Program-made: the position numbers and the translations under genes
In this document: one piece after another, positions 8,036 through 42,587 of the stretch
How the letters are laid out: every line of letters starts with the position of its first letter
How positions within the stretch are numbered: the stretch's first letter is position 1
NCBI GenBank assembly: GCA_947450895.1
Contig: CANFWT010000006.1
Location: 11,048 to 75,047, forward strand
Length of the DNA: 64,000 bases
From: Comamonadaceae bacterium
Lineage (GTDB): Bacteria > Pseudomonadota > Gammaproteobacteria > Burkholderiales > Burkholderiaceae_C
Direction of reading: 5' to 3'
Notes under the pieces: model-generated
The model's input: only the letters and a program-made list of their open reading frames with translations
Told to the model about the DNA's origin: nothing
The model's database searches: none

Positions 8036-8040
8036 TTCAG

Positions 8041-16280: not shown

Positions 16281-16395
16281 GGAGTGGGCGCCGCACAGGC
16301 GCAAAAAGGGGCGCAAAAAGGGGGCAAGTGTACGCAGTGGCCGGCAGGGGTGTATGGCCAGTGGTTGCGGCGGGTATTTACGGTATTCTTAAGCA

Positions 16396-21280: not shown

Positions 21281-21301
21281 GGCGGGCGTGGCCCTGCTTG
21301 G

Positions 21302-22492: not shown

Positions 22493-22579
22493 TGGGACAC
22501 CGCCCAGCATGTTGCCAACCGGGTCCAAAGTCAGGAGGGAGATGGATGTGATCCACCCTGCCCACATTTGCGCCACCCC

Positions 22580-23488: not shown

Positions 23489-23560
23489 GCGCGGAACCAT
23501 AGGGGTGGGTTGGACTGATTTTTTGGTTTTTGCTACATTTAACGAAATTTAACGCGTTTT

Positions 23561-24088: not shown

Positions 24089-24156
24089 GCGCCGCAGGGC
24101 GGACTTTGGCCTGCGCGGGCGCTGCGCCTGTGGGCCGCACTGCTAAGCTAGGGCGC

Positions 24157-25368: not shown

Positions 25369-25391
25369 ACCCTTGGACCCATTTCATTGCC

Positions 25392-26207: not shown

Positions 26208-26286
26208 GCATATTACAAGCCCCGCAGATTCGGACGTGCTGTTGCAACTGTCCCCTCTAACCTTCTATCTACCAAGGAGTATCCCT

Positions 26287-26565
26287 ATGAAAGCCGTTTG
26301 GAAGAACACCGTCATTGCCGAGAGCGACGACACCGTCATGGTCGAGGGCAACCACTATTTCCCCGAGTCCTCGCTCAAGCGCGAGTACATCAGCTTTAGC
26401 AACCACAAAACCAGTTGCCCCTGGAAAGGCCAGGCCAGCTACTACTCCATCAACGTCAATGGCGACCTGAACCCTGACGCCGCCTGGTACTACGCCGAGC
26501 CCAAAGAGGCCGCTGCCAACATCAAAGGCCGGGTCGCGTTTTGGAAGGGTGTGCAGGTCAGCTGA
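26287..26565 (+). CDS. DUF427 domain-containing protein
   Basis: VEGNHYFP, TSCPWKGQASYY, AAWYY, IKGRVAFW. Confidence 0.92.
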   Translation: MKAVWKNTVIAESDDTVMVEGNHYFPESSLKREYISFSNHKTSCPWKGQASYYSINVNGDLNPDAAWYYAEPKEAAANIKGRVAFWKGVQVS

Positions 26566-26600: not shown

Positions 26601-27404
26601 CTATGCCGCCAGCAGTACCGGAAAGCTCTCTGAGTCCATCGCCGCGCCGTTGTCCGGCCCGCCACTTGGCGGCGGAGGTGGCGACATAAAGCCGCTGCGC
26701 AGCACAAAGCGCGCGTCGGCGCCGGTAAAGCGCGCCGAGAACGCGCGCCTGCGGTGGGTGCTGGCGTTTTCGGGTGAACCGTGCACCGTCAGGCCGTGAA
26801 AGGCCACGCAGTCCCCAACGTCTAGCGCCCACTGCAGCACTTGGTGTTGGGCGCGTTCGGCCTCGAAGTCGGGCGGCGTCTCAAAGCGGCTGTCTTGCGC
26901 GCTCGCGTGCGCCTTTTGGTCCACAAAGCGCGCGGGTGTAAACCAACGGCCCCAGGCGTGGGAGCCTGCAATGAATTCAATCGACGTGTCTTTTGCCACC
27001 GGGTCCAGCGGAATCCACAGGCTCACGATGTCCTGGCCGTCAATGGGGTAGTAGGGCTGGTCATGGTGCCAGGGCGTACGCTCTTTGGTGCCGGGCTCTT
27101 TCACCAAGACGTGCTCGTGGTAGAGGTTGACCTTGGGCGAGCCCATCAGTTCAGAGGCCAAATGCTTGGCCGGGGACTCAAAAAAGAAGTCGCGGTAAGC
27201 GTCGATGCGCTGCCAGTTGCAATAGTCGCCAAAGAACATGCCCGGGTTGCCTTCGGGGGTGTAGCGCTTGGCGTAGGGGCCGGGCTGGCTGAGGTTTTCT
27301 TCTACCCCCTCGCGCAAGCGGGCGATCCACTCGGCGCTGATGACATTGCGCAGCGGCACGGCGCCGTCGCGTTGGTAGTCGGCGATGGTTTGGGAGTCAA
27401 GCAT
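26601..27404 (-). CDS. PhyH-family Fe(II)/2-oxoglutarate dioxygenase
   Basis: TPWHHDQPY (HxD), VSLWIPLD, FHGLTVHG, RRRA; AAGGA RBS before ATG 27404. Confidence 0.88.
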   Translation of the reverse strand: MLDSQTIADYQRDGAVPLRNVISAEWIARLREGVEENLSQPGPYAKRYTPEGNPGMFFGDYCNWQRIDAYRDFFFESPAKHLASELMGSPKVNLYHEHVLVKEPGTKERTPWHHDQPYYPIDGQDIVSLWIPLDPVAKDTSIEFIAGSHAWGRWFTPARFVDQKAHASAQDSRFETPPDFEAERAQHQVLQWALDVGDCVAFHGLTVHGSPENASTHRRRAFSARFTGADARFVLRSGFMSPPPPPSGGPDNGAAMDSESFPVLLAA

Positions 27405-27450: not shown

Positions 27451-27471
27451 AGTTGTATAGACAACTATACT
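27451..27471 (+). promoter_or_regulatory. HutC operator plus TATACT -10 element (copy 1)
   Basis: AGTTGTATAGACAACTATACT; dyad TTGTATAGACAA matches the known HutC box; exact reverse complement of 37665-37685. Confidence 0.85.
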
Positions 27472-27536: not shown

Positions 27537-28607
27537 ATGTTTTTGCGCAACACCTGGTACATCGCCGCCTGGGACCGTGAGCTGGCCCAAGCGCCCTTGG
27601 CAGTGCGTGTGTTGGGTGAAGACATTGTGTTGTACCGCAAGGCGGACGGTAGCGCCGCCGCCCTGGAAGACGCCTGCCCGCACCGCAAGCTGCCGCTGTC
27701 CATGGGCCGCATTCAGGGCGACTACTTGGAGTGCGGCTACCACGGCCTGACCTTTGACTGTGCGGGCACCTGCGTCAAGGTGCCGGGCGCAGACCGCATT
27801 CCTGAGGCGGCGCGGGTGCGCGCGTACCCGCTGGAACTGCGCTACGGCCTGTTGTGGATCTGGATGGGTGCGCCTGAGCGCGCCGACCCGGCCACCATCC
27901 ACCAGATTCCCCACTGGGACGACCCCGCCTGGGGCTGCAACCAGGGCGAGGCCATCGACATGGCCTGCAACTACCTGCATATCACCGACAACCTGCTGGA
28001 CCCCTCGCACGTGTCCTGGGTGCACCAAAGCTCGTTTGGCAGCGCCGCCTGCGAGGACACGCCGCTGGACACCGCAGTGGCCGCCAACGGCGTGACGGTG
28101 TCGCGCTGGATGCGCGACGTGGAGCCCGCGCCGTTTTATGTGCCGTTCTTGAAGTTCAAAGGCCACTGCGACCGAAAGCAGCAGTACGAGGTGCGCTTTC
28201 CCAGCCACGCCTACATCAAGGCCATCTTTGTGCCCGCAGGCACGGGCGGCGACGACCAGCCGCTGCACCCGGACGGCTTCATCATGGACAGCTACAACTT
28301 CATGACGCCAGTGGACGCCACGCACACGCGCTACTACTGGTTCCAAATGCGCAACTTTGCGCCGGGCGACGCCGAGGTGTCGCGCCAGTTCACCGAGTCG
28401 GTGCGCTTTGCTTTTGGCGAGGACAAGCGGATTTTGGAGGCGGTGCAAAAAGGCATAGACCAAGCCCGCGTGCCGCCCATGGGCCTGAAGATTGACCTCG
28501 GCCCGGCGCGCTTTCGCCGCGCCATGGCGCAATTGATTGCCGACGAACAAGCGCTGGCCCCGGCCACAGCGCGCACCATTGCCATCCACCCGGAGACTGC
28601 CGCATGA
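27537..28607 (+). CDS. Rieske non-heme iron oxygenase alpha subunit (VanA/demethylase-like)
   Basis: CPH-x16-CGYH Rieske ligands; DNLLDPSHVSWVH and ED Fe triad; RBS AGGAGAG. Confidence 0.92.
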   Translation: MFLRNTWYIAAWDRELAQAPLAVRVLGEDIVLYRKADGSAAALEDACPHRKLPLSMGRIQGDYLECGYHGLTFDCAGTCVKVPGADRIPEAARVRAYPLELRYGLLWIWMGAPERADPATIHQIPHWDDPAWGCNQGEAIDMACNYLHITDNLLDPSHVSWVHQSSFGSAACEDTPLDTAVAANGVTVSRWMRDVEPAPFYVPFLKFKGHCDRKQQYEVRFPSHAYIKAIFVPAGTGGDDQPLHPDGFIMDSYNFMTPVDATHTRYYWFQMRNFAPGDAEVSRQFTESVRFAFGEDKRILEAVQKGIDQARVPPMGLKIDLGPARFRRAMAQLIADEQALAPATARTIAIHPETAA

Positions 28608-29722
28608 GCGCCACCCCCCACGGCCTGACTTTCAACCCGCATGTGGCGGCGCTGCCGCCCTACAACGCGGGCACCAACGTGGACATTGCCCGAGACGCCT
28701 CGGGCCGCCACGACATTGCCCGCCTGGCCAGCAACGAAAACCCCGAGGGCTGCTCGCCCACAGTGATGCAGGCGCTGGCCTCTGCGGCGTTTGAGCCCTG
28801 GCGCTACGCCGACCCGGCCTGCACCGCCTTGCGCGCGGCGCTCGCTAAGCGCCTGGGTGTGGACGCGGCGCAGATCGTGGTGGGCAATGGCTCGGAAGAA
28901 ATGATTGCCGCGGTCTCGCGCGCGCTGTTGCTGCCCGGCAGCCAGGCGCTGACGGTGGTCCCCAGCTTTGGCCTGCATGAGATTGAGCCGCTGGCGCTGG
29001 GCGCCACCGTTACCAAGCTGCCCATGACCGCAGACTTTGGTTTTGACCTGGTCGCGATCGAGCGCGCCATGGCCAGCGCGCCGCGCATCGTGTTTTTGTC
29101 CTCGCCCTGGAACCCGGTGGGTCCCGCGCTCAGTGCCGCCGATTTGCAGCGCGTCATCGCTGCGGTGCGCCCCGGCAGCCTGCTGGTGCTCGACGAGGCG
29201 TATTTTGAATACGCCGACCCGGGCAGCGTGGACGGCCTGGAGGCGCTCAAGGCCAGTGGCCTGCCCTTTGTGGTGCTGCGCACTTTTTCCAAAGCCTATG
29301 GCTTGGCGGGCCTGCGCGTGGGCTACGCCGTGTGCTCGCACCCCGAGATTGCGCGTGTCATGGCCTCGGCCAAAACGCCGTTCAACGTCAACGCCGCGGC
29401 CCAACTCGCCGCCTTGGCCGCGCTCGACGACGAAGCCTGGATGCACGCCTCGGTGGCGCGTCTGCGCACCGAGCGCATGCGCGTGGCCGCTGCCCTCAAG
29501 GCGCTGGGCCTGCGCGTGGCCGATTCGCAAACCAATTTCTTGTTTTTCGAGTGCCGCAGCGACAGCGCAGAACAAGCCGCTGCGCTCCTGCGCCAGGGCA
29601 TCATCGTCAAGGCCTGGCGCGAGGCGGGCTATGAGCGTTTTATGCGCGCCACCATTGGCAGCGCGCCGGACAACGACCGCTTGTTGTCGGCGCTGGCAGC
29701 GCTCAACCCCGCCGCAATCTGA
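28604..29722 (+). CDS. HisC-like class II PLP aminotransferase
   Basis: LASNENP, GNGSEE, LDEAY, RTFSKAYGLAGLRVGY. Confidence 0.9.
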   Translation: MSATPHGLTFNPHVAALPPYNAGTNVDIARDASGRHDIARLASNENPEGCSPTVMQALASAAFEPWRYADPACTALRAALAKRLGVDAAQIVVGNGSEEMIAAVSRALLLPGSQALTVVPSFGLHEIEPLALGATVTKLPMTADFGFDLVAIERAMASAPRIVFLSSPWNPVGPALSAADLQRVIAAVRPGSLLVLDEAYFEYADPGSVDGLEALKASGLPFVVLRTFSKAYGLAGLRVGYAVCSHPEIARVMASAKTPFNVNAAAQLAALAALDDEAWMHASVARLRTERMRVAAALKALGLRVADSQTNFLFFECRSDSAEQAAALLRQGIIVKAWREAGYERFMRATIGSAPDNDRLLSALAALNPAAI

Positions 29723-29739
29723 CCGCAAAGGAAGCCCGG

Positions 29740-31137
29740 ATGCACGCATTGACTGGTGAGTTCTTAGACGCCCTGCGCACCGCTGTTGGCGCAGCCCATG
29801 TGGCCACCGGCGAGGCCGTGGCGCTGCTGGACGTGGGTTGGAACCCGCACAACCTGGATGCAGGCGTGGTGGTGTCGCCCGCCAGTACCCAGGAGGTCGC
29901 CGCTGTGGTGCGCCTGTGCGCGCAGCACGGCGTGCCACTGGTGCCGCAAGCCGGGCGCACCGGCTTGGTGGGCGGCAGCATTTCGCACCCCGGCGAAATC
30001 GTGCTCTCGCTCTTGCGCCTGAACCACGTTGAGGCCATCGACCCGCAAGAGCGCGTGGCCGTGGTGGGCGCGGGTTGCACCCTGCAAGCGCTGCAAGACG
30101 CTGCTGCGGTGCACCAGTTGGAGCCCGGCATTGACCTGGCCGCACGCGGTTCGGCCACGCTGGGCGGCATGGTGTCCACCAACGCGGGCGGCGTCATGGC
30201 CTTTCGCAACGGCGTGATGCGCCACCGCGTGCTGGGCCTGGAAGCCGTGCTGCCCGACGGCAGCGTGTTCCACGACCTGACCCGGGTGGTAAAAAACTCG
30301 GCGGGCTACGACCTCAAGCACCTGTTCATAGGCGCCGAAGGCACGCTGGGGGTGGTTACGCGCGTGGTGGTCAAGCTCGACCCGCTGCCGCAGGCCACCG
30401 CCACAGCGCTGTTCGGCCTGCCTTCGGTCGAGGCAACGCTTGACGTGATTGCGCTGGCCTTGCAGGCCAAGGCCGGGCACTTGCGGGCTGCTGAAGCGCT
30501 TTGGCGGGACTTTATGCAGCTCAATGCCCAGGCCTTGCACTGGTCGCAAGAGGGCTTTTCGCTGGACCAGCCGATCTTCTTGCTGCTCAAGCTGGGCGGC
30601 GCGGACGAAGCCGCCTTGCAGGCCGCCTTTGAACAACTGTTTGAGAGCACCCTGGCGCGCTACCCCAGCAGCACCGGCATCATCGCCAGCTCGCAGCGCC
30701 AGGAAACCGAGCTCTGGCACCTGCGTGAAGACACGGACATTGTTTACCGCGCCTACCCGCAAGCGCCCTCATTTGACGTGTCGGTGCCCTTGTCGCGCAT
30801 TCCCGCCTATGTGGCCCAGGTGCAAGCCGAACTCGCTGCGCTGGACGCCACGCTGCAACCCTTTATTTTTGGCCATCTGGCCGACGGCAACCTGCACATC
30901 ATCCTCAACGTGCGCGGCCCCGTGGCGCCCGAGCGCGCGCAGGCGGTGGAGCACATTTTGTACCGCCACTTACAGGCCTTGGGCGGCTCGTTCTCGGCCG
31001 AACACGGCGTGGGCTCCAAGCGAATTGGCGCCATGAACGACACCACCAATGCCACCAAACTCGCCGTCATGGCCCAGGTCAAGCGCCTGCTGGACCCGCA
31101 GGGGCTGATGAATCCGGGGAAGGTGTTTCAGGCCTGA
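29740..31137 (+). CDS. FAD-linked oxidase, D-2-hydroxyacid dehydrogenase family (GlcD/D2HGDH-like)
   Basis: PQAGRTGLVGG, GGMVSTNAGG, KNSAGYDL, GAEGTLGVVT, GHLADGNLH, SAEHGVG. Confidence 0.9.
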   Translation: MHALTGEFLDALRTAVGAAHVATGEAVALLDVGWNPHNLDAGVVVSPASTQEVAAVVRLCAQHGVPLVPQAGRTGLVGGSISHPGEIVLSLLRLNHVEAIDPQERVAVVGAGCTLQALQDAAAVHQLEPGIDLAARGSATLGGMVSTNAGGVMAFRNGVMRHRVLGLEAVLPDGSVFHDLTRVVKNSAGYDLKHLFIGAEGTLGVVTRVVVKLDPLPQATATALFGLPSVEATLDVIALALQAKAGHLRAAEALWRDFMQLNAQALHWSQEGFSLDQPIFLLLKLGGADEAALQAAFEQLFESTLARYPSSTGIIASSQRQETELWHLREDTDIVYRAYPQAPSFDVSVPLSRIPAYVAQVQAELAALDATLQPFIFGHLADGNLHIILNVRGPVAPERAQAVEHILYRHLQALGGSFSAEHGVGSKRIGAMNDTTNATKLAVMAQVKRLLDPQGLMNPGKVFQA

Positions 31138-31158: not shown

Positions 31159-31968
31159 CTACACCAGCATGGCCGCGCCGCGGTCCAGGTAGGTGTCCAG
31201 GAACTGGTCAAGCCGGGGGTGGCGGGGTTTGCCAAACACTTCGCTGGGCGTGCCTTGCAGCAGCAAGCGGCCTTGGTCCAAAAACGTGATGCGGTTGGCC
31301 ACTGACGCGGCAAAGCCAATCTCGTGCGACACCACCACCATGGTCATGCCGTCGGCGGCCAGGTCGCGCATCACTTTGAGTACTTCGCCCGTTAATTCAG
31401 GGTCGAGGGAGGACGTGGGCTCGTCAAACAGCATGATCTTGGGCTCGCAAGCCAGCGCGCGCGCAATGGCCACACGCTGCTGCTGCCCGCCCGAGAGTTG
31501 CGATGGGTAGTGGCCCGCGCGGTCTTCCAGGCCCACTTTGCGCAACTGCGCCAAAGCGCGCTCTTCTGCTTGTGCCTTGGGCATACCACGCGCGGTTTTC
31601 AGGGCCTCGCTCACATTGCCCAGCGCCGTCATGTGCGGCCACAGATTGAATTGTTGAAAGCACATGCCGATGTGCGAGCGCACCTCACGGATGCGCTGCG
31701 GGCTCAGGCGCACGCGCTGGCCGCCACTTTCTTGCGAGAAACCCAGGGGCTCGCCATTGATCAATATGGTGCCCGCCGTGGCCTCTTCCAAAAAGGCCAT
31801 GCAACGCAAGAGCGTACTTTTACCCGAGCCCGAGGGCCCGATCACGCAGGTCACCTGGCCATGCGCGATGTCCAGGTCAATGCCGTGCAAGACCTCGGTC
31901 TGGCCGAAGCGCTTGCTCACGCCGCGCACCGAAATGGCGGCAGCGGGGGAGGTGGTTGCAGAGCTCAT
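31159..31968 (-). CDS. Polar amino-acid ABC transporter ATP-binding protein
   Basis: GPSGSGKST, LSGGQQQR, FDEPTSSLDPE. Confidence 0.93.
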   Translation of the reverse strand: MSSATTSPAAAISVRGVSKRFGQTEVLHGIDLDIAHGQVTCVIGPSGSGKSTLLRCMAFLEEATAGTILINGEPLGFSQESGGQRVRLSPQRIREVRSHIGMCFQQFNLWPHMTALGNVSEALKTARGMPKAQAEERALAQLRKVGLEDRAGHYPSQLSGGQQQRVAIARALACEPKIMLFDEPTSSLDPELTGEVLKVMRDLAADGMTMVVVSHEIGFAASVANRITFLDQGRLLLQGTPSEVFGKPRHPRLDQFLDTYLDRGAAMLV

Positions 31969-32633
31969 GTGTGTGAAAACGTGTATTTGGAGAGTCGTTT
32001 TTCGGCAAAGCTGCCAATGCGTCCTGCCAGCGACACCATGGCCCAGTAAAAGCAGGCCAGCACGGCCATGGCTTCGACAAACGCGTATTGCTGCGAGCCA
32101 ATGGCCTGCATCAAAAAGGTCAGCTCTGGCACCGTGATGATGGACAACACCGCCGTTTCCTTGAGCAAGATGACGGTCATATTGATGACCGGCGGCAGCA
32201 CCAGCATGGTCATCTCGGGCACCTGAATGCGCCAGATGATCTGAGCGCGGGTCAGTCCCAGGCATTGCGCTGCTTCCACGTGGCCGCCGGGCACGGCCTC
32301 AAAACCGGCGCGAAAGATTTCGCTGAAGTAGGCCGCGCCGTACACGGTCACACCGAGCAAACCCGCGGGCATGGGGTCTAGCGCAATGCCGATAAACGGG
32401 CCGCCGTAGTACAGCAAAAACAGCTGGATCAAAAAGGGCGTGCCACGGATGATTTCCACATAGGCGCTGAGCAACCATCGCAGCCACCACGGTCCGAAGC
32501 GCAGCCCCAGGGTGACAAAAAACCCCAGCACCACCGCGCCAGCGGTGCCCACCAGCCAGATCATGCAGGTCACACCGATGGAGCGCACCAGCTCGGGCAG
32601 TTGCTCAACGATGTGGGTGAAGTCAATGATCAT
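31965..32633 (-). CDS. Polar amino-acid ABC permease
   Basis: RGTPFLIQL, AYFSEIFRAG, EAA loop. Confidence 0.92.
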   Translation of the reverse strand: MIIDFTHIVEQLPELVRSIGVTCMIWLVGTAGAVVLGFFVTLGLRFGPWWLRWLLSAYVEIIRGTPFLIQLFLLYYGGPFIGIALDPMPAGLLGVTVYGAAYFSEIFRAGFEAVPGGHVEAAQCLGLTRAQIIWRIQVPEMTMLVLPPVINMTVILLKETAVLSIITVPELTFLMQAIGSQQYAFVEAMAVLACFYWAMVSLAGRIGSFAEKRLSKYTFSHT

Positions 32634-33271
32634 CGGATACCCCAGCTAAACGAGCGCTCCAGCCGCCGCCCTAAGCGTGACAGCGTCCAGTTCGTCACGA
32701 AGTACAGCAAACCGGCGACCGCAAACAATTCCAGGGGCCGAAAAGTACTGGCCGCCAGGTCTTGCGCCATGCGGGTGAGCTCCACCACGCCCACCACCGA
32801 CACCAGCGAGGACGCTTTGACGATCATGATGGCCTCGCTGGTCAGCGCGGGCAGGGTCAGGCGCAGGGCGATGGGCACCTTGATACGCCAAAACTGCTGC
32901 AGTGGGCTCAGACCCAGCATATCGGCGGCCTCTAACAGTCCGCGCGGCACGCTGGTCAGCCCACCGCGCATGTTCTCAGCCTGGTAGGCCGCGTCGCACA
33001 GCGAGAGGCCCACCACGGCGGCCACCAGGCTGGGTACGTTCAGGCCCAGCACCGGCAGCAGGTTGTAAATCAGGAGCAGCTGCACCAAGAGAGGCGAGCC
33101 GCGAAAAAAACTGACAAAAGTGCGTCCGCACCAGGAAACAGCACGGTTGCGCGAGAGCATGGCGCCAGACACGCCGATGCCAATCACGAGGCCCAACACA
33201 ATGGAGACGGCACTGATGGCGATGGTCAAGCCACAGGCTTTCACGAGGAGTGCGAACAGTTTCCAGGACAA
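32630..33271 (-). CDS. Polar amino-acid ABC permease
   Basis: RGSPLLVQL, AYQAENMRGG, KASSLVS. Confidence 0.92.
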   Translation of the reverse strand: MSWKLFALLVKACGLTIAISAVSIVLGLVIGIGVSGAMLSRNRAVSWCGRTFVSFFRGSPLLVQLLLIYNLLPVLGLNVPSLVAAVVGLSLCDAAYQAENMRGGLTSVPRGLLEAADMLGLSPLQQFWRIKVPIALRLTLPALTSEAIMIVKASSLVSVVGVVELTRMAQDLAASTFRPLELFAVAGLLYFVTNWTLSRLGRRLERSFSWGIR

Positions 33272-33348: not shown

Positions 33349-34173
33349 TTACAGGGCGGGGTTGGTCACTGCGTCGGGTGTGTCAAACGAATCGCCAAAC
33401 CATTTCTTCTGGATTTTGGCCAGGCGTCCGTCGGCTTTGACCTTGAGCATGGCGGCCGTGATGGCTGCCATCAGCGTGGCAGAGTCGTCGTCCTTGCGCG
33501 CTACATAACCAAAATAGCTCTTGATGCCAAATGCGGGCTTGACCACTTCAAAGGTGTCGGAGCGTTGCTGCGCCACGTAAGTGATATTGGGCAGCGAATT
33601 GCCCACCGCCACGATGCGCCCTGCGGCCAGGTCGGCATAGGCTTCGTTGTTGCCGGGGTACTCGCGCACGTCGGCTTTGCCCAGGCTCTCGGCAAAGGTC
33701 TTGAGTTGCGCCAGCTGGGCCGAAGCCTTGCCGCCACCTACCGGTTTGCCGGCGATGTCTTCGGGCTTCATCACCGCCTTGTCGCCTTTGCGCTTGAGCA
33801 GGGCCACGGTGGCCTCAGCGATAGGCGGTGTGAAGCGGTAGCGCTCCATGCGGGCTTTGGTAACGGTCACCGGGCCGGTCACCATGTCGAACTTCTTGGC
33901 TTCCAGGCCGGGCAACACGCCTTCCCACGGCAGGGCGGTCCACTCGGTTTTCACACCCATTTCCTTGGCCACTTCGTTCATCAAGTCCATGTTCAGGCCG
34001 ACGTGGGTGCCGCCGTCAATGAAGTCAAACGGTGCAAAGGCGGTTTCGGTGCCGATCTTCAGCACGCCCGAGGCTTTGGTACGGGCCAGGGCATCTTGCG
34101 CTTGTGCGCCAAAGGCAAAGCCCAAGACGAGAGTGGCGCCCAAGAGGGTTTTTAGTACTAGTCGTTTGCTCAT
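33349..34173 (-). CDS. Amino-acid ABC substrate-binding protein (family 3)
   Basis: Signal peptide; GTETAFAPF, ERYRFTPP, IQKKWFG. Confidence 0.92.
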   Translation of the reverse strand: MSKRLVLKTLLGATLVLGFAFGAQAQDALARTKASGVLKIGTETAFAPFDFIDGGTHVGLNMDLMNEVAKEMGVKTEWTALPWEGVLPGLEAKKFDMVTGPVTVTKARMERYRFTPPIAEATVALLKRKGDKAVMKPEDIAGKPVGGGKASAQLAQLKTFAESLGKADVREYPGNNEAYADLAAGRIVAVGNSLPNITYVAQQRSDTFEVVKPAFGIKSYFGYVARKDDDSATLMAAITAAMLKVKADGRLAKIQKKWFGDSFDTPDAVTNPAL

Positions 34174-34338: not shown

Positions 34339-35889
34339 TTAGGCGGCGATCCACAGTGGCGGCAGTGCGTCCAGCGTGCGCAATATCCGCGCCAGCGACC
34401 CGTCTTCCACCAGCGTGGTGGCGTGCGCAATGTCAGATGCCAAGTAGCGGTCGTGTTCCATCTTGGGCACGTGTTGGCGCAGCAGCGCGTGCACCGCTTC
34501 GAGTGCGTGCGAGCTTTGCAGCGGCCGCAAAAAGTCGATGCCCTGGGCGGCGGCCAGCAGCTCAATGCCCAAAATGTGCGCGGTGTTGCTCACCATCGCC
34601 TGCAGGCGCCGCGCGGCAAAAGTGGCCATGGACACATGGTCTTCCTGGTTGGCGCTGGTGGGCAGGCTGTCTACGCTGGCCGGATGCGCCAGCGATTTGT
34701 TCTCAGACGCCAGCGCGGCGGCAGTCACGTGCGCAATCATGAAGCCGCTGTTGAGGCCGGCGTCATCGGTCAAAAACGGCGGCAGGCGCGACACGCTGCT
34801 GTCGATCAGCATGGCAATGCGCCGCTCGGCAATGGCGCCCACCTCGGCAATGGCCAGCGCCATGCCGTCAGCCGCCAAGGCCACCGGCTCGGCGTGGAAG
34901 TTGCCGCCCGAGAGCATGGCGCCGTCTTGCGCAAACACCAGTGGGTTGTCGGTAACGGCGTTGGCTTCTATCAGCAGCACGCGGGCCGCGTGGCGCAGCT
35001 GGTCCAGGCAGGCGCCCACCACTTGCGGCTGGCAGCGCAGGCAGTAGGGGTCTTGCACCCGGTCATCGCCATCCAGGTGCGAATGTCGAATGGCGCTGCC
35101 CGCAAGCAGTGCGCGGTAGTACTGGGCCACGTCGATCTGGCCGGGCTGGCCGCGCAGCAAGTGGATGCGCGGGTCAAACGGGCCGTCGCTGCCGCGCGCG
35201 GCGTCAATGGTCAGCGCGCCAATCACCAGCGCGGCTTCCAGCACCGGCTCAAACACCAGCAGCGCGTGCAGCGCCAGTGCGGTGGAGGTTTGGGTGCCGT
35301 TGATCAGCGCCAGCCCTTCTTTGGGGCCGAGCGCCAGCGGTGCAATGCCAGCGGCCTGCAAGGCGCCCAGGGCCGGTACCGGCGCGCCGCCTGCCAGCAT
35401 GAAGCCTTCGCCCATGAGCGCCAGCGTCATGTGCGCCAGCGGCGCCAGGTCGCCAGACGCGCCCACCGAACCTTTGGACGGCACCCACGGCACCAAGCCC
35501 GCGTTGAACACCGCCAACAAGGTGTCGACCACCACCTGGCGCACGCCCGAGTAGCCGCGCGCCAGGCTGGCCGCCTTGAGCGCGAGCATCAGGCGCATCA
35601 CGGCGGGTTGCAGCGGCTCGCCCACGCCCACGCAGTGGGAACGAATCAGGTTGAGCTGCAGCGTGGCGAGTTGCGATTTGCTGATGCGCTGGTTGGCCAG
35701 CTTGCCAAAGCCGGTGTTCACGCCATAGACCGGCGCGTCGCCGTCGGCGGCGTCTTGCACTACCTGTTGGCTGGCCGCAATGGCCGCGTGGCAGGATTGC
35801 GGCAGCTGCAGTTGCACGCCACCGGCATGGATGGCTTGGAGTTGCTCCAGCGTCAGGTGGCCGGGGTGGATGGAGAGGGTTGGCGTCAT
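34339..35889 (-). CDS. hutH: Histidine ammonia-lyase
   Basis: [20 protein letters not shown] (MIO-forming ASG), [18 protein letters not shown]. Confidence 0.97.
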
Positions 35890-35890: not shown

Positions 35891-37609
35891 TCAGAGGGCT
35901 TTCATCGGCAGGTTCAGGCCCTGTTCGCGGGCGCAGTCTTCGGCAATGGTGTAGCCCGCATCGGCGTGGCGCATTACGCCGGTGGCTGGGTCGTTCCACA
36001 GCACGCGGCCCAGGCGCTCGGCGGCCTCGGGCGTGCCGTCGGCCACGATGACCACGCCGCTGTGTTGCGAGTAGCCCATGCCCACGCCGCCGCCATGGTG
36101 CAGGCTGACCCAGGTGGCGCCGCTGGCGGTGTTGAGCAAGGCGTTGAGCAGCGGCCAGTCGCTCACCGCATCGCTGCCGTCTTGCATGGCTTCGGTCTCG
36201 CGGTTGGGCGATGCCACCGAGCCGCTGTCGAGGTGGTCCCGGCCAATGACGATGGGGCCTTTGAGCTCGCCGCTTCGGACCATCTCGTTAAACGCCAGCC
36301 CAGCCAGGTGCCGCTCGCCCAGGCCAATCCAGCAAATGCGCGCGGGCAGGCCCTGGAAGGCAATGCGCTCGCCCGCCATGTCCAGCCAGCGCAGCAGGCC
36401 TGCGTTGTGCGGAAACAGCGCTTTCATTTTGGCGTCGGTCTTGCGAATGTCTTCGGGGTCGCCGCTGAGCGCCACCCAGCGGAAGGGGCCAATGCCTTTG
36501 CAAAACAGGGGCCGCACATAGGCGGGTACGAAGCCGGGGTAGTCAAAGGCATTGGCTACGCCGTAGTCTTTGGCCACCTGGCGCAGGTTGTTGCCGTAGT
36601 CCACGGTGGGAATGCCCATGGCATGGAATTCGAGCAGCGCGCGCACATGCACCGCGCAAGACGCGCCCGCAGCCTGGGTGAGTTCGGCGTGTTGCGCCGG
36701 GTCGGCTTGGGCGGCGCGCCAGCGCGCCACGCTCCAGCCGCTGGGCAAGTAGCCGTTGATGATGTCGTGCGCCGAGGTCTGGTCGGTCACGATGTCCGGG
36801 CGCAGACCACCCATCCGTGCGCGGCGCGCCAGTTCGGGCAGCAGGTCGGCCGCGTTGCCGCACAGGCCAATCGACACCGCCTCTTTGCGCGCCGTGTGGT
36901 GGGCCACCATCTCCAAGGCTTCGTCCAGGTTGGCGGCTTGCTTGTCCAGGTAGCGGGTGCGCAGCCGGAAGTCGATGCTGCTTTGCTGGCATTCGATGTT
37001 GAGCGAGCAGGCCCCGGCAAAGGTCGCCGCCAGTGGTTGGGCGCCGCCCATGCCGCCCAAGCCTGCGGTCAGCACCCAGCGCCCGCTCAGGTCGCCGCCG
37101 TAGTGCTGGCGTCCGGCCTCAACAAAGGTCTCGTACGTGCCTTGCACAATGCCTTGCGAGCCGATGTAAATCCAGCTCCCCGCCGTCATCTGCCCGTACA
37201 TCATCAGCCCGGCGCGGTCGAGTTCGTTGAAATGCTCCCAGGTCGCCCACTTGGGCACCAGGTTGGAGTTGGCAATCAGCACGCGCGGCGCGTCGGTGTG
37301 GGTGCGAAACACGCCCACCGGTTTGCCGCTTTGCACCAGCAGCGTCTCGTTGGCCTGGAGCTTGCGCAGGCTGTCCAGAATGCCCTCAAAGCAGGCCCAG
37401 TTGCGCGCCGCCTTGCCAATGCCGCCGTACACCACCAGCTGGTCGGGGTTTTCGGCCACCTCGGGGTCCAGGTTGTTTTGCAGCATGCGGTAGGCCGCCT
37501 CGATCTGCCAGTTGGCGCAGCGCAGTTCAGGGCCGCGTGGCGCGCGCACCGGGCGGGCCTGGGCGTTGGCAAAAGGGCTGGGTGAGGTGGGGGAGGGACT
37601 TGCGGACAT
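35891..37609 (-). CDS. hutU: Urocanate hydratase
   Basis: [58 protein letters not shown]. Confidence 0.98.
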
Positions 37610-37664: not shown

Positions 37665-37685
37665 AGTATAGTTGTCTATACAACT
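37665..37685 (-). promoter_or_regulatory. HutC operator plus -10 element in the hutU/hutC divergent promoter (copy 2)
   Basis: Plus strand AGTATAGTTGTCTATACAACT, i.e. minus strand AGTTGTATAGACAACTATACT, at the canonical HutC position. Confidence 0.9.
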
Positions 37686-37725: not shown

Positions 37726-38436
37726 ATGTCCACCCCCCAGCTCCCGGCCTATGAACAGGTCAAGGCCTTTGTCAAAGGGCAAATCACCAGCGGCGCCCTG
37801 CAAGCAGGCGACACCGTGCCCAGCGAGGCGGCGCTGCAGCAGCAGTTTGGCGTCAGCCGCATGACGGTCAACCGCGCGGTCAAGGAGCTGGCGACCGAAG
37901 GCCTGGTGACAAGGCAGCGCGGCTCGGGCACGGTGGTGGCGCAGTGGCACCGCATATCGAGCATGCTGGCGGTGCGCGACATCCACGAAGAAGTGCTGGA
38001 GCGCGGCCACGCCCACACCAGCCGCGTGCTGCGCCTGGAAACTGTCGCCGCCGATGCCGCGCTGGCCCAGGCGCTGGGCGTGCCCGTGGGCGCCCCGCTG
38101 TTCCATTCGGTGATGGTGCACCTGGAAAACGGCGTGGCCATTCAGATCGAAGACCGCCATGTCAACCCGGCGGTCGCTCCTGGCTACCTGGCGCAGGACT
38201 TTCAAACCACCACGCCCACCCAGTATTTGTTTGCCTGCGCGCCCTTGACCGAGGCGCGCTATTCCATCGAGGCCGCGCTGCCCAGCGCCGCAGAGGCCAA
38301 AAGCCTGGACATTGGCCGCAGCGCGCCCTGCTTGGTCATCACCCGCTGCACGGTAAGCGGCGCCCATGTAGCCAGCCAGGCGCGCCTGGTCTACCCCGGC
38401 GCGCGCTACAGCCTGAGCGGCAATTTTCAGCTGTAA
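37726..38436 (+). CDS. hutC: Histidine utilization repressor (GntR/HutC)
   Basis: PSEAALQQQFGVSRMTVNRA wHTH plus UTRA domain; hut context. Confidence 0.95.
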   Translation: MSTPQLPAYEQVKAFVKGQITSGALQAGDTVPSEAALQQQFGVSRMTVNRAVKELATEGLVTRQRGSGTVVAQWHRISSMLAVRDIHEEVLERGHAHTSRVLRLETVAADAALAQALGVPVGAPLFHSVMVHLENGVAIQIEDRHVNPAVAPGYLAQDFQTTTPTQYLFACAPLTEARYSIEAALPSAAEAKSLDIGRSAPCLVITRCTVSGAHVASQARLVYPGARYSLSGNFQL

Positions 38437-38440: not shown

Positions 38441-39013
38441 ATGAAGTGGAACACCCTGGCCTTGGTCGAGCTAGCCCCCAGCCCCTGGAAAAATGGCGGC
38501 GGCGTGACGCGCGAATTGCTGGCCTGGCCCAGCCCGGCGCACTGGCTGTTTCGCCTGTCGGTGGCCGAGGTGCAGGCTGACGGCCCTTTTTCTCGCTTCG
38601 AGGGCGTGCAGCGCTGGTTTGCCGTGCTCTCTGGCGCGGGCGTGCGGCTGCGCCTGGGCGACGGTGGGGCAGGGGAGGTGGCCATGCTCACCCCCGCAAG
38701 TGCGCCTTTTTGTTTTGACGGCGCGCTTGCCGTCGACTGCGCGCTGATTGACGGCGCCACGCAAGACTTCAACCTCATGCTGCGCACCGACCGGGCCAGC
38801 GCGCACCTGCTGCGGGTCGTGGACCGGCTGGACGCGGTGACTGCGGGCCCGCGCACCGTCGCCATTTGGGCGGGCGTGTCTGGCGCCGAGATTTGGGCCG
38901 GACAAGCCTGCACCCGGCTGGCCGGCCACAGCCTGGCCTGGCGGGCGCTGCCTGCGGGCGTGGCCCTCAACGTGCGCTCAACCGACGCTTTGTACATGGA
39001 GATAGACGCATGA
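38441..39013 (+). CDS. hutD: HutD family protein
   Basis: [30 protein letters not shown]. Confidence 0.92.
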
Positions 39014-40224
39014 GCCTGCAACTTTGGCACCACTGCACCCTGGCCACCTTGCAGGCCGACGCCACCGAGCCCTACGGCCTGGTGCCCGACGGCGCCATGG
39101 TGGTGCAAGGCGCCACCTTGAAATGGGTGGGGCCGCTGGCCGCGCTGCCCAAGGCGCTGCGTGCCCAATGCAGCCTGCAGCACGACGCGCGCGGCGCGCT
39201 CATCACCCCCGGGCTGATTGATTGCCACACGCATTTGGTCTATGGCGGCGACCGCGCTGCCGAGTTTGAGCAGCGCCTGCAAGGCGTGGGCTACGAAGAA
39301 ATAGCCCGCCGTGGCGGCGGCATTGCGTCCACGGTGCGCGCCACGCGCGAGGCCAGCGCCGAACAACTCACGGCCAGCAGCGCCCAGCGCCTGCGCCGCT
39401 TGATGGCCGAGGGCGTGACCACCGTGGAGATCAAGTCCGGCTACGGCCTGGCGCTGGCGCACGAGCGCAAATGCCTGCAAGTGGCGCGCGCCCTGGGCGC
39501 CGACCACGCGGTCGACGTGCGCACCACGTTTTTGGGCGCCCACGCGCTGCCGCCTGAGTTTGCCGGGCAGGGCGACGCTTATATCGACGAGGTGCTGCGC
39601 ATGCTGGCGCAGTTGGCTGGCGAGGGCTTGGTGGACGCCGTAGACGCGTTTTGCGAGCGCATTGCGTTTAGCACTGCGCAGACCGAGCGGGTGTTCCAGG
39701 CCGCGCAGGCGCTGGGCTTGGCGCTCAAGCTGCACGCCGAGCAGCTCAGCGACAGCGGCGGCGCGCAACTGGCCGCGCGTTATGGCGCACTGAGCTGCGA
39801 CCACCTGGAATGGCTGTCCGACGCGGGCGCTGCCGCCATGGCAGACGCGGGCAGCGTGGCGGTGCTCTTGCCCGGGGCCTTTTACTTTTTGCGCGAAACC
39901 AAGCTGCCGCCCATGGACTTGCTGCGCCAGCACGGCGTGCCCATGGCCATTTCCACCGACTGCAACCCCGGCAGCTCGCCCTGCACCTCGCTGCTGCTCA
40001 TGCTCAATATGGCCTGCACCCTGTTTCGCCTGACGCCCGAAGAAGCGCTGGCCGGCGTCACCCGCCATGCTGCCCGCGCCTTGGGCCTGCGCGACCGGGG
40101 CGTGTTGGCGCCGGGCTTGCGTGCCGACTTTGTGCTGTGGGACCTGCAGCATCCGGCGCAACTGGCCTACGCCCTGGGCGCCAACCCGCTGATCCATACC
40201 GTTTTCAAAGGCGAAGTGCGATGA
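39010..40224 (+). CDS. hutI: Imidazolonepropionase
   Basis: [38 protein letters not shown]. Confidence 0.96.
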
Positions 40225-41036
40225 CCCACCCCGAGACCTATTCCCTGCACCGAGGCAGCGCGCCGCTTTTGCTCAGCTTGCCGCACACAGGCACCCAGAT
40301 TCCGCCCGAATTGCAGGCCGACTACGTGCCGCGCGCCCTGGCGGTGGAAGACACCGACTGGCACCTGGCGCGCCTCTACGACTTTGCGCCGCAAATGGGC
40401 GCGAGCGTGCTGCGCCCGCATTTCAGCCGCTACGTGATTGACCTCAACCGCCCGCCCGACGACGCACCCATGTATCCCGGCGCCTCCAACACCGAACTCT
40501 GCCCCACGCGCTTCTTTACCGGCGAGGCGCTCTACCTGGACGGATACGCGCCCGATGCCGCAGAGCGCGCACGCCGCCGCAGCCGGTACTGGGAGCCCTA
40601 CCACCAGGCCTTGCAGGCCGAGTTGCAGCGCATCACGGCCCTCCACGGCTACGCGCTGCTATGGGATGGCCACAGCATTCGCTCACAAATCCCTTGGTTG
40701 TTTGAGGGCCGCCTGCCCGACCTGAACATTGGCACGGCCAGCGGTGCCAGCGCCGATGCCACGGTTGCCCAGGCGGTGCAGGCGGCGTGCCAAATCCAAG
40801 CCCAGTTCAGCCAGGTGCTCAACGGCCGCTTCAAGGGTGGCTACATCACCCGCCACTACGGCGCGCCCCAGCGCCGGGTGCACGCGGTGCAGCTGGAAAT
40901 GTGCCAGTCCATGTACATGCAGGAGGCGCCGCCCTTCGACTACCGCCCGCAAGCGGCCACGGCGGTACAGCCGCTGCTGCAGTCCCTGCTGGCGGCCGCT
41001 TTGCACGCCTGCGAGGTTTTGTATGCCCCGCGCTGA
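40221..41036 (+). CDS. hutG: N-formylglutamate deformylase
   Basis: [48 protein letters not shown]. Confidence 0.95.
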
Positions 41037-42432: not shown

Positions 42433-42571
42433 GATACCCAATCGGCGGGCAGCGCAGCAAGCGTTTGCCCCCCGGCGCCCCGTGCGCTTGGATGCGGTGT
42501 GCCGGCCACTTTGGGCCTGAATTTGCCCGAGATCAGCTTTTTGTGCACTCCAAGGCACGCCACGGTGCAGG

Positions 42572-42587
42572 TGTGACGCGCGTCACT
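42572..42587 (+). promoter_or_regulatory. CRP/FNR-family-like binding site upstream of the Csu pilin
   Basis: TGTGA-CGCGCG-TCACT, 9/10 to TGTGA-N6-TCACA. Confidence 0.55.

What the first reader, a model, noticed from the sequence alone, without database searches (positions are those of the whole stretch)
27537..31137. Candidate new feeder pathway for histidine derivatives: Rieske oxygenase + HisC-like aminotransferase + FAD 2-hydroxyacid dehydrogenase
Seen: three tightly linked genes (ATGA overlap, 17-bp gap) behind a HutC box, converging on the hut ABC transporter. Known: VanA-clade Rieske enzymes often do O-/N-demethylation; GlcD/D2HGDH-family enzymes oxidise 2-hydroxyacids to 2-oxoacids; HisC-family enzymes transaminate imidazole/aromatic oxoacids. 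Inference: methylated histidine or imidazole-lactate-type compounds are demethylated, oxidised to imidazole-pyruvate and transaminated to L-histidine for HutH. The substrate is a hypothesis, and I cannot check whether this gene set is already described.
Basis: inference. Interest (0 to 1): 0.78.

Follow-up and report, generated by a model that had tools for sequence, protein, structure and literature searches.

The report
Hut-linked Rieske demethylase feeder operon
Three co-transcribed genes under the histidine-utilisation repressor belong to a widespread, unnamed gene module that most likely turns a methylated or otherwise modified histidine back into histidine, a route for which I found no published genes.

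Summary
A VanA-type Rieske oxygenase (27537-28607), a HisC-like aminotransferase (28604-29722, ATGA overlap) and a GlcD-like FAD dehydrogenase (29740-31137, 17-bp gap) form one operon. It sits behind a 21-bp sequence identical to the hutU/hutC operator and converges on the hut ABC transporter.

The module is conserved. In 109 distinct loci from Alpha-, Beta- and Gammaproteobacteria the Rieske gene (57-90% identity) travels with other genes:
- a LysR regulator in 86 loci
- a dedicated FNR/2Fe-2S reductase in 77
- the HisC-like gene in 82
- the GlcD-like gene in 69
- DUF2817 with an amino-acid ABC importer in 58
- hut genes within 10 kb in 28, in at least ten different arrangements
- true glutathione-dependent formaldehyde-detoxification genes in 18, sometimes inside the operon

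The importers keep the HisJ clamp for a free alpha-amino acid.

Best reading (about 0.45): an N-methylhistidine demethylase yields histidine and formaldehyde, and the other two enzymes salvage imidazole 2-oxo and D-2-hydroxy acids. The main rival is imidazole-propionate hydroxylation.

This lineage has lost LysR and the reductase and placed the operon under HutC. The substrate is unproven, and no paper describing the genes was found.

The parts
26601..27404 (-). PhyH-family Fe(II)/2-oxoglutarate dioxygenase, divergent from the Rieske operon and sharing its operator region
   Evidence: Pfam PhyH 106 bits; ATG at 27404 read from the sequence. It is adjacent to the Rieske gene in 15 related loci. 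Orthologs lie between hutH and hutU in Stella spp..
27451..27471 (+). HutC-type operator with overlapping -10-like TATACT; 21 bp identical to the hutU promoter site
   Evidence: The core GTTGTATAGACAAC is conserved upstream of the Rieske gene in L005, L006, L008, L011-L013 and L015-L018.
27537..28607 (+). VanA-type Rieske non-haem-iron oxygenase (oxygenase component only)
   Evidence: Rieske plus VanA_C domains. Cluster ligands C47, H49, C66, H69 and iron ligands H158, H163, D296 are invariant in 121 homologs and align with the DdmC ligands. Nearest solved structures are GdmA 7QWT and DdmC.
28604..29722 (+). HisC-family PLP aminotransferase, a catabolic paralog; proposed imidazolepyruvate/histidine aminotransferase
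   Evidence: Equivalents of K214, D184, Y187, N157, R222 and R335 of E. coli HisC are conserved. The housekeeping hisC is a separate gene on contig C37, 30% identical.
29740..31137 (+). GlcD/D2HGDH/LDHD-type FAD-linked D-2-hydroxyacid dehydrogenase
   Evidence: Every relative at 58% identity or more with readable flanks lies beside the HisC-like gene.
31159..31968 (-). ABC transporter ATPase (HisP/GlnQ-like), last gene of the hutU operon, convergent with the trio
   Evidence: start choice.
31965..33271 (-). Two polar-amino-acid ABC permeases (31965-32633 and 32630-33271)
   Evidence: BPD_transp_1.
33349..34173 (-). Periplasmic amino-acid binding protein (SBP_bac_3)
   Evidence: Orthologs at 61-97% identity accompany hut genes or the module in other lineages.
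34339..35889 (-). hutH, histidine ammonia-lyase
   Evidence: TIGR01225 681.7 against cut-off 539.
35891..37609 (-). hutU, urocanate hydratase
   Evidence: TIGR01228 913.8 against cut-off 375; ATG at 37609.
37665..37685 (-). Second copy of the 21-bp operator/-10 module, facing hutU
37726..38436 (+). hutC, histidine-utilisation repressor
   Evidence: TIGR02018 279.8 against cut-off 220.
38441..42432 (+). hutD (38441-39013), hutF (about 39010-40224), hutG (about 40221-41036), hutI (start uncertain, about 41065 or 41152, to 42432)
   Evidence: Pfam HutD, Amidohydro, FGase, Amidohydro_1; candidate starts.

Best explanation
The three genes are the local, trimmed version of a conserved peripheral catabolic module. 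The module converts a side-chain-modified histidine, most likely N(tau)- or N(pi)-methyl-L-histidine, into L-histidine for the Hut pathway.

Shown:
- The operon structure.
- An operator identical to the hutU operator, with a bona fide HutC encoded next door.
- Intact metal and cofactor residues, and purifying selection on all three genes.
- Recurrent linkage of the orthologous module to hut genes, to a dedicated reductase, to amino-acid importers and to glutathione-dependent formaldehyde-detoxification genes in other bacteria.

Inferred:
1. The Rieske oxygenase takes electrons from an FNR-type reductase. In this lineage that would be a generic one, such as the BenC-like protein on contig C15. 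It hydroxylates an N-methyl group, and the carbinolamine releases formaldehyde and histidine.
2. The HisC-like enzyme interconverts histidine (or methylhistidine) and the corresponding imidazolepyruvate.
3. The FAD enzyme oxidises D-imidazole-lactate-type 2-hydroxyacids to that 2-oxoacid. Together these two funnel the 2-oxo and 2-hydroxy forms into histidine. They may also let demethylation proceed on the amine-free keto acid.
4. Histidine gives urocanate, the known HutC effector, which would de-repress both the hut operons and this operon. That is a feed-forward arrangement replacing the substrate-specific LysR activator found elsewhere.
For: Operon and operator:
-.

Orthologous family and its neighbours. 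Of 109 distinct loci:
- LysR 86, reductase 77, HisC-like 82, GlcD-like 69, DUF2817 58
- hut genes within 10 kb in 28, in at least ten different arrangements (Comamonadaceae MAGs, Acidovorax, Polaromonas, Lichenihabitans, Aureimonas, Aurantimonas, Geminicoccaceae, Steroidobacter, Povalibacter, Gemmobacter/Pseudorhodobacter)
- 26 of 26 carriers without adjacent hut still encode hutU elsewhere.

Formaldehyde:
- The GFA gene of L068 scores 306 on TIGR02820 (cut-off 234.55) and the ADH gene scores 588 on TIGR02818 (cut-off 544).
- In L075, L076 and L078 these genes lie between the importer genes and the GlcD-like gene. In L068, L069 and L083 they lie between hutU and LysR. In L025 a GFA homolog (58% identity, found by tblastn) follows the GlcD-like gene.

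Demethylase kinship:
- The best solved relatives are GdmA (guaiacol O-demethylase) and DdmC.

Substrate is a free basic alpha-amino acid:
- The P. fragi binding protein passes the LAO/HisJ subfamily cut-off (272 against 256).
- It and the L068-type binding proteins keep HisJ residues Arg77, Asp161, Ser/Thr72 and Thr120/121.

Minimal clusters:
- The P. fragi NMC25 meat-isolate plasmid carries only LysR, importer, DUF2817, Rieske and reductase.
- L028 has hut genes directly followed by LysR, Rieske and reductase.

Regulation and function:
- Urocanate is the HutC effector (PMC12772324).
- All three genes are under purifying selection.
Against: - No enzyme or growth data exist for any member, so the substrate is inferred from context only.
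- Simple demethylation to histidine gives no necessary role to the HisC-like and GlcD-like genes. Yet these are the most constant companions. GlcD-like relatives at 58% identity or more with readable flanks always lie beside the HisC-like gene.
- An Actinomycetes MAG pairs them with a different Rieske enzyme (33% identity). That suggests the three act in one pathway.
- This genome and seven sister genomes lack the dedicated reductase anywhere.
- This lineage has no DUF2817 and no dedicated importer.
- Formaldehyde genes are present in only 18 of 109 loci.
- The active-site comparison of the HisC-like protein was uninformative.
Confidence: 0.45

Rival explanations
1. Imidazole-propionate route. 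The Rieske enzyme hydroxylates C2 of imidazole propionate to D-imidazole-lactate. The FAD enzyme oxidises that to imidazolepyruvate. The HisC-like enzyme aminates it to L-histidine.
For: - This is the only simple linear scheme that needs all three gene products in series.
- GlcD-like and HisC-like are tightly co-inherited with a Rieske gene, including a non-orthologous one in L109.
- The FAD enzyme is closest to D-2-hydroxyacid dehydrogenases (3PM9, human D2HGDH, mouse LDHD).
- From memory, not retrievable here: Coote and Hassall (Biochem J 1969, 1973) described an inducible conversion of imidazolylpropionate and imidazolyl-lactate via imidazolylpyruvate to histidine in Pseudomonas (now Comamonas) testosteroni and P. 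(now Delftia) acidovorans, which are Comamonadaceae like this genome's relatives.
Against: - It does not explain the formaldehyde-detoxification genes embedded in the module.
- The co-clustered binding proteins keep the alpha-ammonium clamp, and imidazole propionate has no amino group.
- Rieske plus reductase occurs without the other two genes next to hut or an importer.
- As I recall it, the classical lactate dehydrogenase was NADP-linked and L-specific. This one is of the FAD, D-specific type.
- No Comamonas testosteroni or Delftia record appeared among 640 relatives confirmed in two scans, of which only the best 80 of each were listed by name.
Confidence: 0.2
2. N(alpha)-methylated histidines or hercynine. 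The Rieske enzyme removes N(alpha)-methyl groups, or hydroxylates C-alpha of hercynine to release trimethylamine and imidazolepyruvate. The HisC-like enzyme then aminates the imidazolepyruvate.
For: - The reductase resembles GbcB (134.7 bits), the LysR resembles GcvA-type and choline-sulfate-type regulators, and a GbcA-like second Rieske gene sits in L068.
- C-alpha cleavage would explain why an aminotransferase is so constant a companion.
- Formaldehyde would come from N-methyl oxidation.
Against: - The binding proteins keep Asp161 and Ser/Thr72, which hold a primary alpha-ammonium, rather than an aromatic cage for a quaternary amine.
- Three successive demethylations would be needed.
- The route described in the held preprint 10.1101/2025.08.13.670108 (its title; the text was not read here) uses a trimethylammonia-lyase.
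- It gives no role to the D-2-hydroxyacid dehydrogenase.
Confidence: 0.08
3. The module acts on a non-imidazole compound, for example a methoxylated aromatic amino acid or aryl-lactate, or a methylated lysine or arginine. Under this reading the hut linkage reflects shared regulation or chance.
For: - The closest characterised oxygenases are aryl O-demethylases.
- The best NCBIfam model for the aminotransferase is PRK05166, which I recall as the HisC2-type paralog found in aromatic amino-acid operons.
- The P. fragi binding protein has Phe52, as ArgT does.
- 81 of 109 loci have no hut gene within 10 kb.
Against: - hut genes (hutH, U, I, F, G together) flank the module in at least ten independent arrangements, where chance expectation is well under 1% per locus.
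- This lineage put the operon under a sequence identical to the hut operator.
- All 26 tested carriers have hutU.
Confidence: 0.1

Closest known systems
VanA-type Rieske O-demethylases: GdmA (guaiacol, PDB 7QWT), DdmC (dicamba, 3GB4), VanAB (vanillate)
   Same: - Same two-domain architecture (Rieske plus VanA_C).
- Same cluster and iron ligands.
- In most relatives a two-component system with an FNR/2Fe-2S reductase.
- Formaldehyde-handling genes nearby.
   Different: - Only about 30-37% identical; a separate clade with a sharp break, orthologs at 57% or more and then below 50%.
- DdmC substrate contacts N230, H251 and W285 are replaced by K/R228, N254 and a deletion.
- Linked to histidine catabolism and amino-acid importers, not to aromatic ring cleavage.
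- No reductase gene in this lineage.
Rieske N-demethylases: NdmA/NdmB (methylxanthines), GbcAB (glycine betaine), Stc2 (stachydrine)
   Same: The proposed chemistry is the same: hydroxylation of an N-methyl group, with formaldehyde released. In NdmA/B the methyl sits on a ring nitrogen (from memory). These systems are also peripheral feeders into a central pathway.
   Different: - These enzymes were weaker sequence matches (NdmA 67.6 bits, over the Rieske domain only).
- The substrates differ.
- None is known to be linked to hut.
Classical imidazolyl-lactate/imidazolylpyruvate route to histidine (EC 1.1.1.111 and EC 2.6.1.38) of Comamonas testosteroni and Delftia acidovorans
   Same: Same logic of converting imidazole 2-hydroxy and 2-oxo acids to histidine and then using Hut. 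Same bacterial family.
   Different: - The dehydrogenase here is FAD-linked and of the D-2-hydroxyacid type, not NADP-linked.
- To my knowledge the genes of the classical pathway were never assigned.
- No C. testosteroni or Delftia record appeared among the listed relatives.
HutC-repressed hut regulon of Pseudomonas and Brucella
   Same: A GntR/UTRA repressor with a near-palindromic TGTA..ACA-type operator. Urocanate is the effector (PMC12772324).
   Different: Here the regulon is extended to two oxygenase loci (PhyH and the Rieske trio) by an exact 21-bp copy of the hutU operator and -10 region.

Membership tests
VanA-type (alpha3) Rieske non-haem-iron oxygenase | Rieske [2Fe-2S] motif C-x-H ... 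C-x-x-H | tested here: met
   C47, H49, C66 and H69 are invariant in 121 homologs and align with DdmC C49, H51, C68 and H71.
VanA-type (alpha3) Rieske non-haem-iron oxygenase | Mononuclear iron site: two His plus one carboxylate, and a VanA_C catalytic domain | tested here: met
   H158, H163 and D296 align with DdmC H160, H165 and D294. VanA_C scores 162.6 bits against a cut-off of 23.5.
VanA-type (alpha3) Rieske non-haem-iron oxygenase | Dedicated NAD(P)H reductase partner encoded with the oxygenase | tested here: not met
   None in the operon. The best match in the genome is a BenC-like protein on C15, 26-28% identical. Seven sister genomes also lack an ortholog. It is present in 77 of 109 related loci.
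Vanillate O-demethylase VanA itself | Orthology to characterised VanA and linkage to protocatechuate catabolism | tested here: not met
   About 36% identity to the gene annotated vanA in Ralstonia. Neighbours are hut genes, not pca genes.
Histidinol-phosphate aminotransferase HisC | Scores above the curated equivalog cut-off and has the PLP-lysine active site | tested here: met
   TIGR01141 293.6 against 276.55. K214, D184, Y187, N157, R222 and R335 equivalents are conserved. It is below the PRK05166 cut-off (419.6 against 540).
Histidinol-phosphate aminotransferase HisC | Acts as the biosynthetic hisC of the genome | tested here: not met
   A separate hisC-like gene on C37 is only 30% identical. 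This copy is translationally coupled to an oxygenase in a HutC-controlled catabolic operon. The name 'histidinol-phosphate transaminase' given in some records is probably an over-annotation.
Glycolate oxidase subunit GlcD | Equivalog score and GlcE/GlcF partner genes | tested here: not met
   TIGR00387 249.4 against 567.9. The adjacent genes are the HisC-like gene and the ABC ATPase, so there is no room for GlcE/GlcF partners beside it.
FAD-linked D-2-hydroxyacid dehydrogenases (D2HGDH/LDHD type) | FAD_binding_4 plus FAD-oxidase_C domains and closest similarity to D-2-hydroxyacid dehydrogenases | tested here: met
   (3PM9 280 bits, human D2HGDH 227, mouse LDHD 208). Substrate not testable here.
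HutC regulon | HutC operator upstream, and a HutC protein in the genome | tested here: met
   21 bp identical to the hutU/hutC intergenic site, conserved in relatives. HutC passes TIGR02018.
HutC regulon | HutC binding relieved by urocanate | not testable with these tools
   Needs a gel-shift or reporter assay.
Classical imidazolyl-lactate pathway (EC 1.1.1.111 / EC 2.6.1.38) | NADP-dependent imidazolyl-lactate oxidoreductase | tested here: not met
   The dehydrogenase here is an FAD-linked oxidase-family protein. The property of the classical enzyme is recalled from memory.

The most novel reading that the evidence does not exclude
This family would be the first genetic basis for bacterial catabolism of methylhistidines. 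These include 3-methylhistidine and 1-methylhistidine from actin, myosin and anserine, which to my knowledge animals excrete largely unmetabolised.

Under this reading a Rieske oxygenase demethylates the imidazole ring nitrogen of an amino acid. It is helped by an aminotransferase and D-2-hydroxyacid-dehydrogenase pair, which may shuttle the amino group so that formaldehyde is released on the amine-free keto acid. That would avoid the spontaneous histidine-formaldehyde cyclisation.

The module is spread among rhizobia, freshwater Comamonadaceae and plasmids of meat-spoilage Pseudomonas. In this lineage it has been rewired from LysR to HutC control and runs on a borrowed reductase.
Probability: 0.35. 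Interest if true: 0.72.

Novelty: new variant of a known kind. Interest (0 to 1): 0.56.

Why it matters
- Methylhistidines and other histidine derivatives are abundant end products of eukaryotic protein turnover. I found no paper that names the bacterial genes degrading them.
- A defined, widespread module would fill that gap. More than 5,000 homologous proteins score E below 1e-40 in public data.
- It would correct the generic or wrong names now given to its genes: 'aromatic ring-hydroxylating dioxygenase', 'histidinol-phosphate transaminase', 'FAD-binding oxidoreductase', 'DUF2817'.
- It would give a testable function to DUF2817.
- It offers a clean case of regulatory rewiring from a LysR activator to the HutC repressor, and of an oxygenase that survives loss of its dedicated reductase.
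- If the rival reading is right instead, these would be the genes for aerobic degradation of imidazole propionate, a gut metabolite of medical interest.

Tried and rejected
- **Classical papers.** I tried to read Coote and Hassall 1973 (PMC1177604, PMC1177605). Neither is held, so that biochemistry is cited from memory only.
- **Literature.** Ten full-text searches covered imidazole propionate or lactate, methylhistidine, hercynine, DUF2817 and P. fragi against Rieske, demethylase and hut. None found a gene-level description. One search served only to identify PDB 7QWT as GdmA.
- **Source names.** Names for 120 homolog clusters were all generic.
- **HisC-like specificity.** I looked for a loss of the phosphate-binding arginine relative to true HisC. 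E. coli R322 is Lys in both the module enzyme and the housekeeping paralog, so this is uninformative.
- **Phylogenetic profile.** Only 2 of 400 sampled Burkholderiales genomes carry an ortholog, too few for statistics.
- **PhyH neighbourhoods.** Outside hut contexts they showed no consistent partner.
- **A Comamonas testosteroni or Delftia carrier.** I shifted the query to the Acidovorax ortholog; none was listed.
- **Rejected: the trio is vanAB-like aromatic catabolism.** Identity is too low, hut genes are the neighbours, and the operator is HutC's.
- **Rejected: the aminotransferase is the biosynthetic hisC.** A separate copy exists.
- **Rejected: the FAD enzyme is glycolate oxidase.** It scores far below the cut-off and has no GlcEF.

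Full report
**What is in the window**

Three genes lie head to tail on the plus strand.
- 27537-28607 encodes a 356-aa protein with a Rieske [2Fe-2S] domain and a VanA_C catalytic domain.
- 28604-29722 encodes a 372-aa class I/II aminotransferase of the HisC family.
- 29740-31137 encodes a 465-aa FAD-linked oxidase of the GlcD/D-2-hydroxyacid-dehydrogenase type.

The first two genes overlap in ATGA. The second and third are 17 bp apart, with an AGGAAG ribosome-binding site. The third gene ends 21 bp from the stop of an ABC ATPase on the other strand.

That ATPase closes a minus-strand operon: hutU, hutH, a periplasmic binding protein, two permeases and the ATPase. hutC, hutD, hutF, hutG and hutI run the other way from the hutU promoter region.

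A PhyH-family Fe/2-oxoglutarate dioxygenase (26601-27404) runs divergently from the Rieske gene.

**The operator**

- TTGTATAGACAA occurs exactly twice in the 64-kb window. One copy is 70 bp upstream of the Rieske start. The other, inverted, lies between hutU and hutC.
- Read out, the identity covers 21 bp, AGTTGTATAGACAACTATACT, at 27451-27471 (+) and 37665-37685 (-). In both places its TATACT end points into the downstream operon.
- The neighbouring regulator passes the curated HutC model (279.8 bits against a cut-off of 220).
- The 14-bp core is kept upstream of the Rieske gene in ten related metagenome-assembled genomes, and at hutU/hutC in three.

Co-regulation with hut is the best-supported statement about this operon.

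**The genes are functional**

- The Rieske ligands C47, H49, C66 and H69 and the iron ligands H158, H163 and D296 align with those of dicamba demethylase DdmC. They are invariant in 121 homologs.
- The aminotransferase keeps the PLP lysine and the other catalytic residues of E. coli HisC.
- Against relatives of the same lineage, dN/dS is 0.05-0.16 for all three genes.

**The module elsewhere**

Two scans of one-genome-per-species contigs gave 109 distinct loci with a Rieske ortholog at 64-89% identity. In the plasmid collection the family breaks sharply. Orthologs are 57% identical or more, a few Ruegeria proteins are about 48%, and everything else, including annotated vanA, is below 40%.

The usual layout in Mesorhizobium, Ensifer, Shinella, Aureimonas, Gemmobacter, Acidovorax and Polaromonas runs in this order:
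1. a divergent LysR gene
2. the Rieske gene
3. a 370-aa FNR-like reductase with a C-terminal 2Fe-2S domain
4. the HisC-like gene
5. the GlcD-like gene
6. often DUF2817, free-standing or fused to an ABC ATPase, with a polar-amino-acid importer

| Companion within 10 kb | Loci of 109 |
|---|---|
| LysR | 86 |
| HisC-like | 82 |
| Reductase | 77 |
| GlcD-like | 69 |
| DUF2817 | 58 |
| Any hut gene | 28 |
| Formaldehyde genes | 18 |

The hut linkage occurs in at least ten different arrangements and lineages. That is far beyond chance for a 20-kb neighbourhood. All 26 tested carriers whose module is not next to hut still have hutU elsewhere.

The module is patchy. Only 2 of 400 sampled Burkholderiales genomes carry it, and it is often plasmid-borne.

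**Clues to the substrate**

1. The nearest solved relatives of the oxygenase are the O-demethylases GdmA (7QWT, identified through PMC12445004) and DdmC.
2. True glutathione-dependent formaldehyde genes lie inside or beside the module in several independent layouts. In L075, L076 and L078 they sit between the importer genes and the GlcD-like gene. In L068, L069 and L083 they sit between hutU and LysR. The L068 copies pass the curated models (TIGR02820 306 against 234.55; TIGR02818 588 against 544). In L025 a GFA homolog (58% identity, by tblastn) follows the GlcD-like gene. This points to release of formaldehyde, that is, demethylation.
3. The co-clustered binding proteins are HisJ/LAO-like. 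The P. fragi protein passes the LAO subfamily model. It and the L068 type keep HisJ Arg77, Asp161, Ser/Thr72 and Thr120/121, the clamp for a free alpha-carboxylate and alpha-ammonium. The residue numbering was checked on E. coli HisJ in that alignment. This favours a side-chain-modified basic amino acid. It argues against imidazole propionate, hercynine or N-acyl compounds as the imported substrate.
4. Minimal clusters exist. A mobilisable plasmid of the meat isolate Pseudomonas fragi NMC25 carries only LysR, importer, DUF2817, Rieske and reductase. In L028 hut genes are followed directly by LysR, Rieske and reductase. So the oxygenase product can apparently enter Hut without the other two enzymes.

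Together these clues make N(tau)- or N(pi)-methyl-L-histidine the most economical guess.

**What does not fit**

- HisC-like and GlcD-like are the most constant companions of the oxygenase.
- Among relatives of the GlcD-like protein at 58% identity or more, every locus with readable flanks places it beside the HisC-like gene, and beside the Rieske gene where the contig reaches.
- In one Actinomycetes genome the pair sits next to a different VanA-like oxygenase, 33% identical.

This suggests one pathway that needs all three. The simplest such pathway is hydroxylation of imidazole propionate to D-imidazole-lactate, oxidation to imidazolepyruvate, and transamination to histidine. That matches, in outline, the classical biochemistry of Comamonas testosteroni, which I could cite only from memory. 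That rival does not explain the formaldehyde genes, the amino-acid clamps or the minimal clusters. No C. testosteroni or Delftia record appeared among the listed relatives.

A reconciling idea, which is pure inference:
- The aminotransferase moves the amino group from methylhistidine to imidazolepyruvate, so that demethylation occurs on the keto acid.
- The FAD enzyme rescues keto acid that has been reduced to the D-lactate form.
- This would also keep formaldehyde away from the histidine amine, with which it cyclises readily.

My odds are 0.45 for the methylhistidine reading, 0.20 for imidazole propionate, 0.08 for N(alpha)-methylated histidines or hercynine, and 0.10 for a non-imidazole substrate. 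The remainder is unassigned.

**What is special in this lineage**

The freshwater Comamonadaceae genomes (L004-L018 and the window) differ from the common layout in three ways.
- They have lost LysR, the reductase, DUF2817 and the dedicated importer.
- They have gained a divergent PhyH dioxygenase.
- They have placed both transcription units under the HutC operator.

No ortholog of the dedicated reductase exists anywhere in this genome or in seven sister genomes. The best matches are generic FNR-type proteins at 26-36% identity. One candidate donor is the BenC-like Fer2-FAD-NAD protein at G000 C15:4334-5416.

Because urocanate is the HutC effector (PMC12772324), the operon would be switched on by histidine or urocanate, and by its own product.

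**Comparison with what is known, and novelty**

- The oxygenase is a member of the VanA-type Rieske family by every sequence feature tested. It lacks the linked reductase, and it is not VanA itself.
- The aminotransferase passes the HisC equivalog cut-off but is not the biosynthetic gene. A separate copy lies on C37, 30% identical. The name 'histidinol-phosphate transaminase' seen in some records is probably an over-annotation.
- The FAD enzyme is not glycolate oxidase (249 bits against a cut-off of 568, no GlcEF).
- Database names are all generic, and ten literature searches found no description of the gene set.

I rate it a new variant of a known kind: a Rieske-based peripheral feeder operon, here for histidine derivatives. 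Interest is moderate to good, limited by the unproven substrate.

**Earlier notes of this scan**

- One note reported the same 21-bp identity. I checked and confirmed it.
- One note proposed the PhyH enzyme as a second oxygenase of the regulon. This is partly supported: PhyH orthologs sit between hutH and hutU in Stella spp..
- Other notes reported Rieske genes wedged in hut loci or beside DUF2817 in other genomes. I did not check these.

Noticed in passing
window 26601-27404 (-); L259, L260, L268, L271, L276, L292: The PhyH-family dioxygenase that shares the HutC operator has orthologs (57-66% identity) inserted between hutH and hutU in Stella spp. and other Alphaproteobacteria, and next to hutC in an Acetobacteraceae genome. 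Most other orthologs show no hut linkage and no consistent neighbours. It may be a second histidine-derivative oxygenase.
   Followed up: partly
window 1-16000: A low-GC block (44-56% against about 65% for the rest of the window). It encodes an epimerase/dehydratase, methyltransferase, GSCFA protein, KdsA-like and KpsF-like (SIS+CBS) enzymes, a sulfotransferase-like protein and glycosyltransferases. It looks like a capsule or O-antigen polysaccharide island, possibly acquired horizontally.
   Followed up: partly
window 16396-26565 (+): A run of genes: a TldD/PmbA pair, a 704-aa protein with no Pfam match, an FAD monooxygenase, EamA and MFS transporters, a 271-aa protein with a hydrophobic N-terminus (signal-peptide-like by eye) and only a weak methyltransferase match, and DUF427. 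It may be a small-molecule or peptide maturation and export cluster. DUF427 is conserved next to the module in L004-L006 and L014.
   Followed up: no
L068 14698-16650; L027 14822-16861; L088 16446-18410: In Alphaproteobacteria DUF2817 (an M14/AstE-like zinc hydrolase fold) is fused in one reading frame to the ATPase of the module's ABC importer (650-679 aa). In the P. fragi plasmid it is a separate 370-aa gene. A hydrolase fused to an importer ATPase is unusual.
   Followed up: partly
L085 (Pseudomonas fragi NMC25 plasmid NZ_CP021134, locus 1945-9832): A 54-kb mobilisable plasmid of a meat isolate carries a compact cargo: LysR, a HisJ-like importer, DUF2817, the Rieske gene and its reductase. 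Near-identical matches are on plasmids of P. bubulae and P. migulae.
   Followed up: partly
G000 C31:8510-9538 (L091): A second VanA-like Rieske oxygenase (29-32% identical to the first) lies after a Bmp/PnrA-type ABC importer and also has no adjacent reductase. The genome has one orphan BenC-like reductase (C15:4334-5416) that could serve both.
   Followed up: partly
L109 7778-11392 (Actinomycetes MAG): HisC-like (63%) and GlcD-like (67%) orthologs sit divergently from a different VanA-like Rieske gene (33%). Two GntR/FCD regulators and a DAO-type FAD oxidoreductase are nearby. This looks like an independent assembly of the same enzyme triad.
   Followed up: no
L089 (Gemmobacter fulvus plasmid p2, locus 5354-21257): The module is followed by a CoA-transferase and an acyl-CoA dehydrogenase. 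It is preceded by a second Rieske/reductase pair and a third oxygenase, each with its own LysR or FCD regulator.
   Followed up: no
L014 6445-10209: In one close relative (84% identity) the Rieske gene stands alone. It is convergent with hutH-hutU and has no HisC-like gene, GlcD-like gene, PhyH, transporter or HutC box.
   Followed up: partly
window 42465-46343 (+): A SCPU-domain pilin and an outer-membrane usher (chaperone-usher fimbrial locus) directly follow hutI.
   Followed up: no
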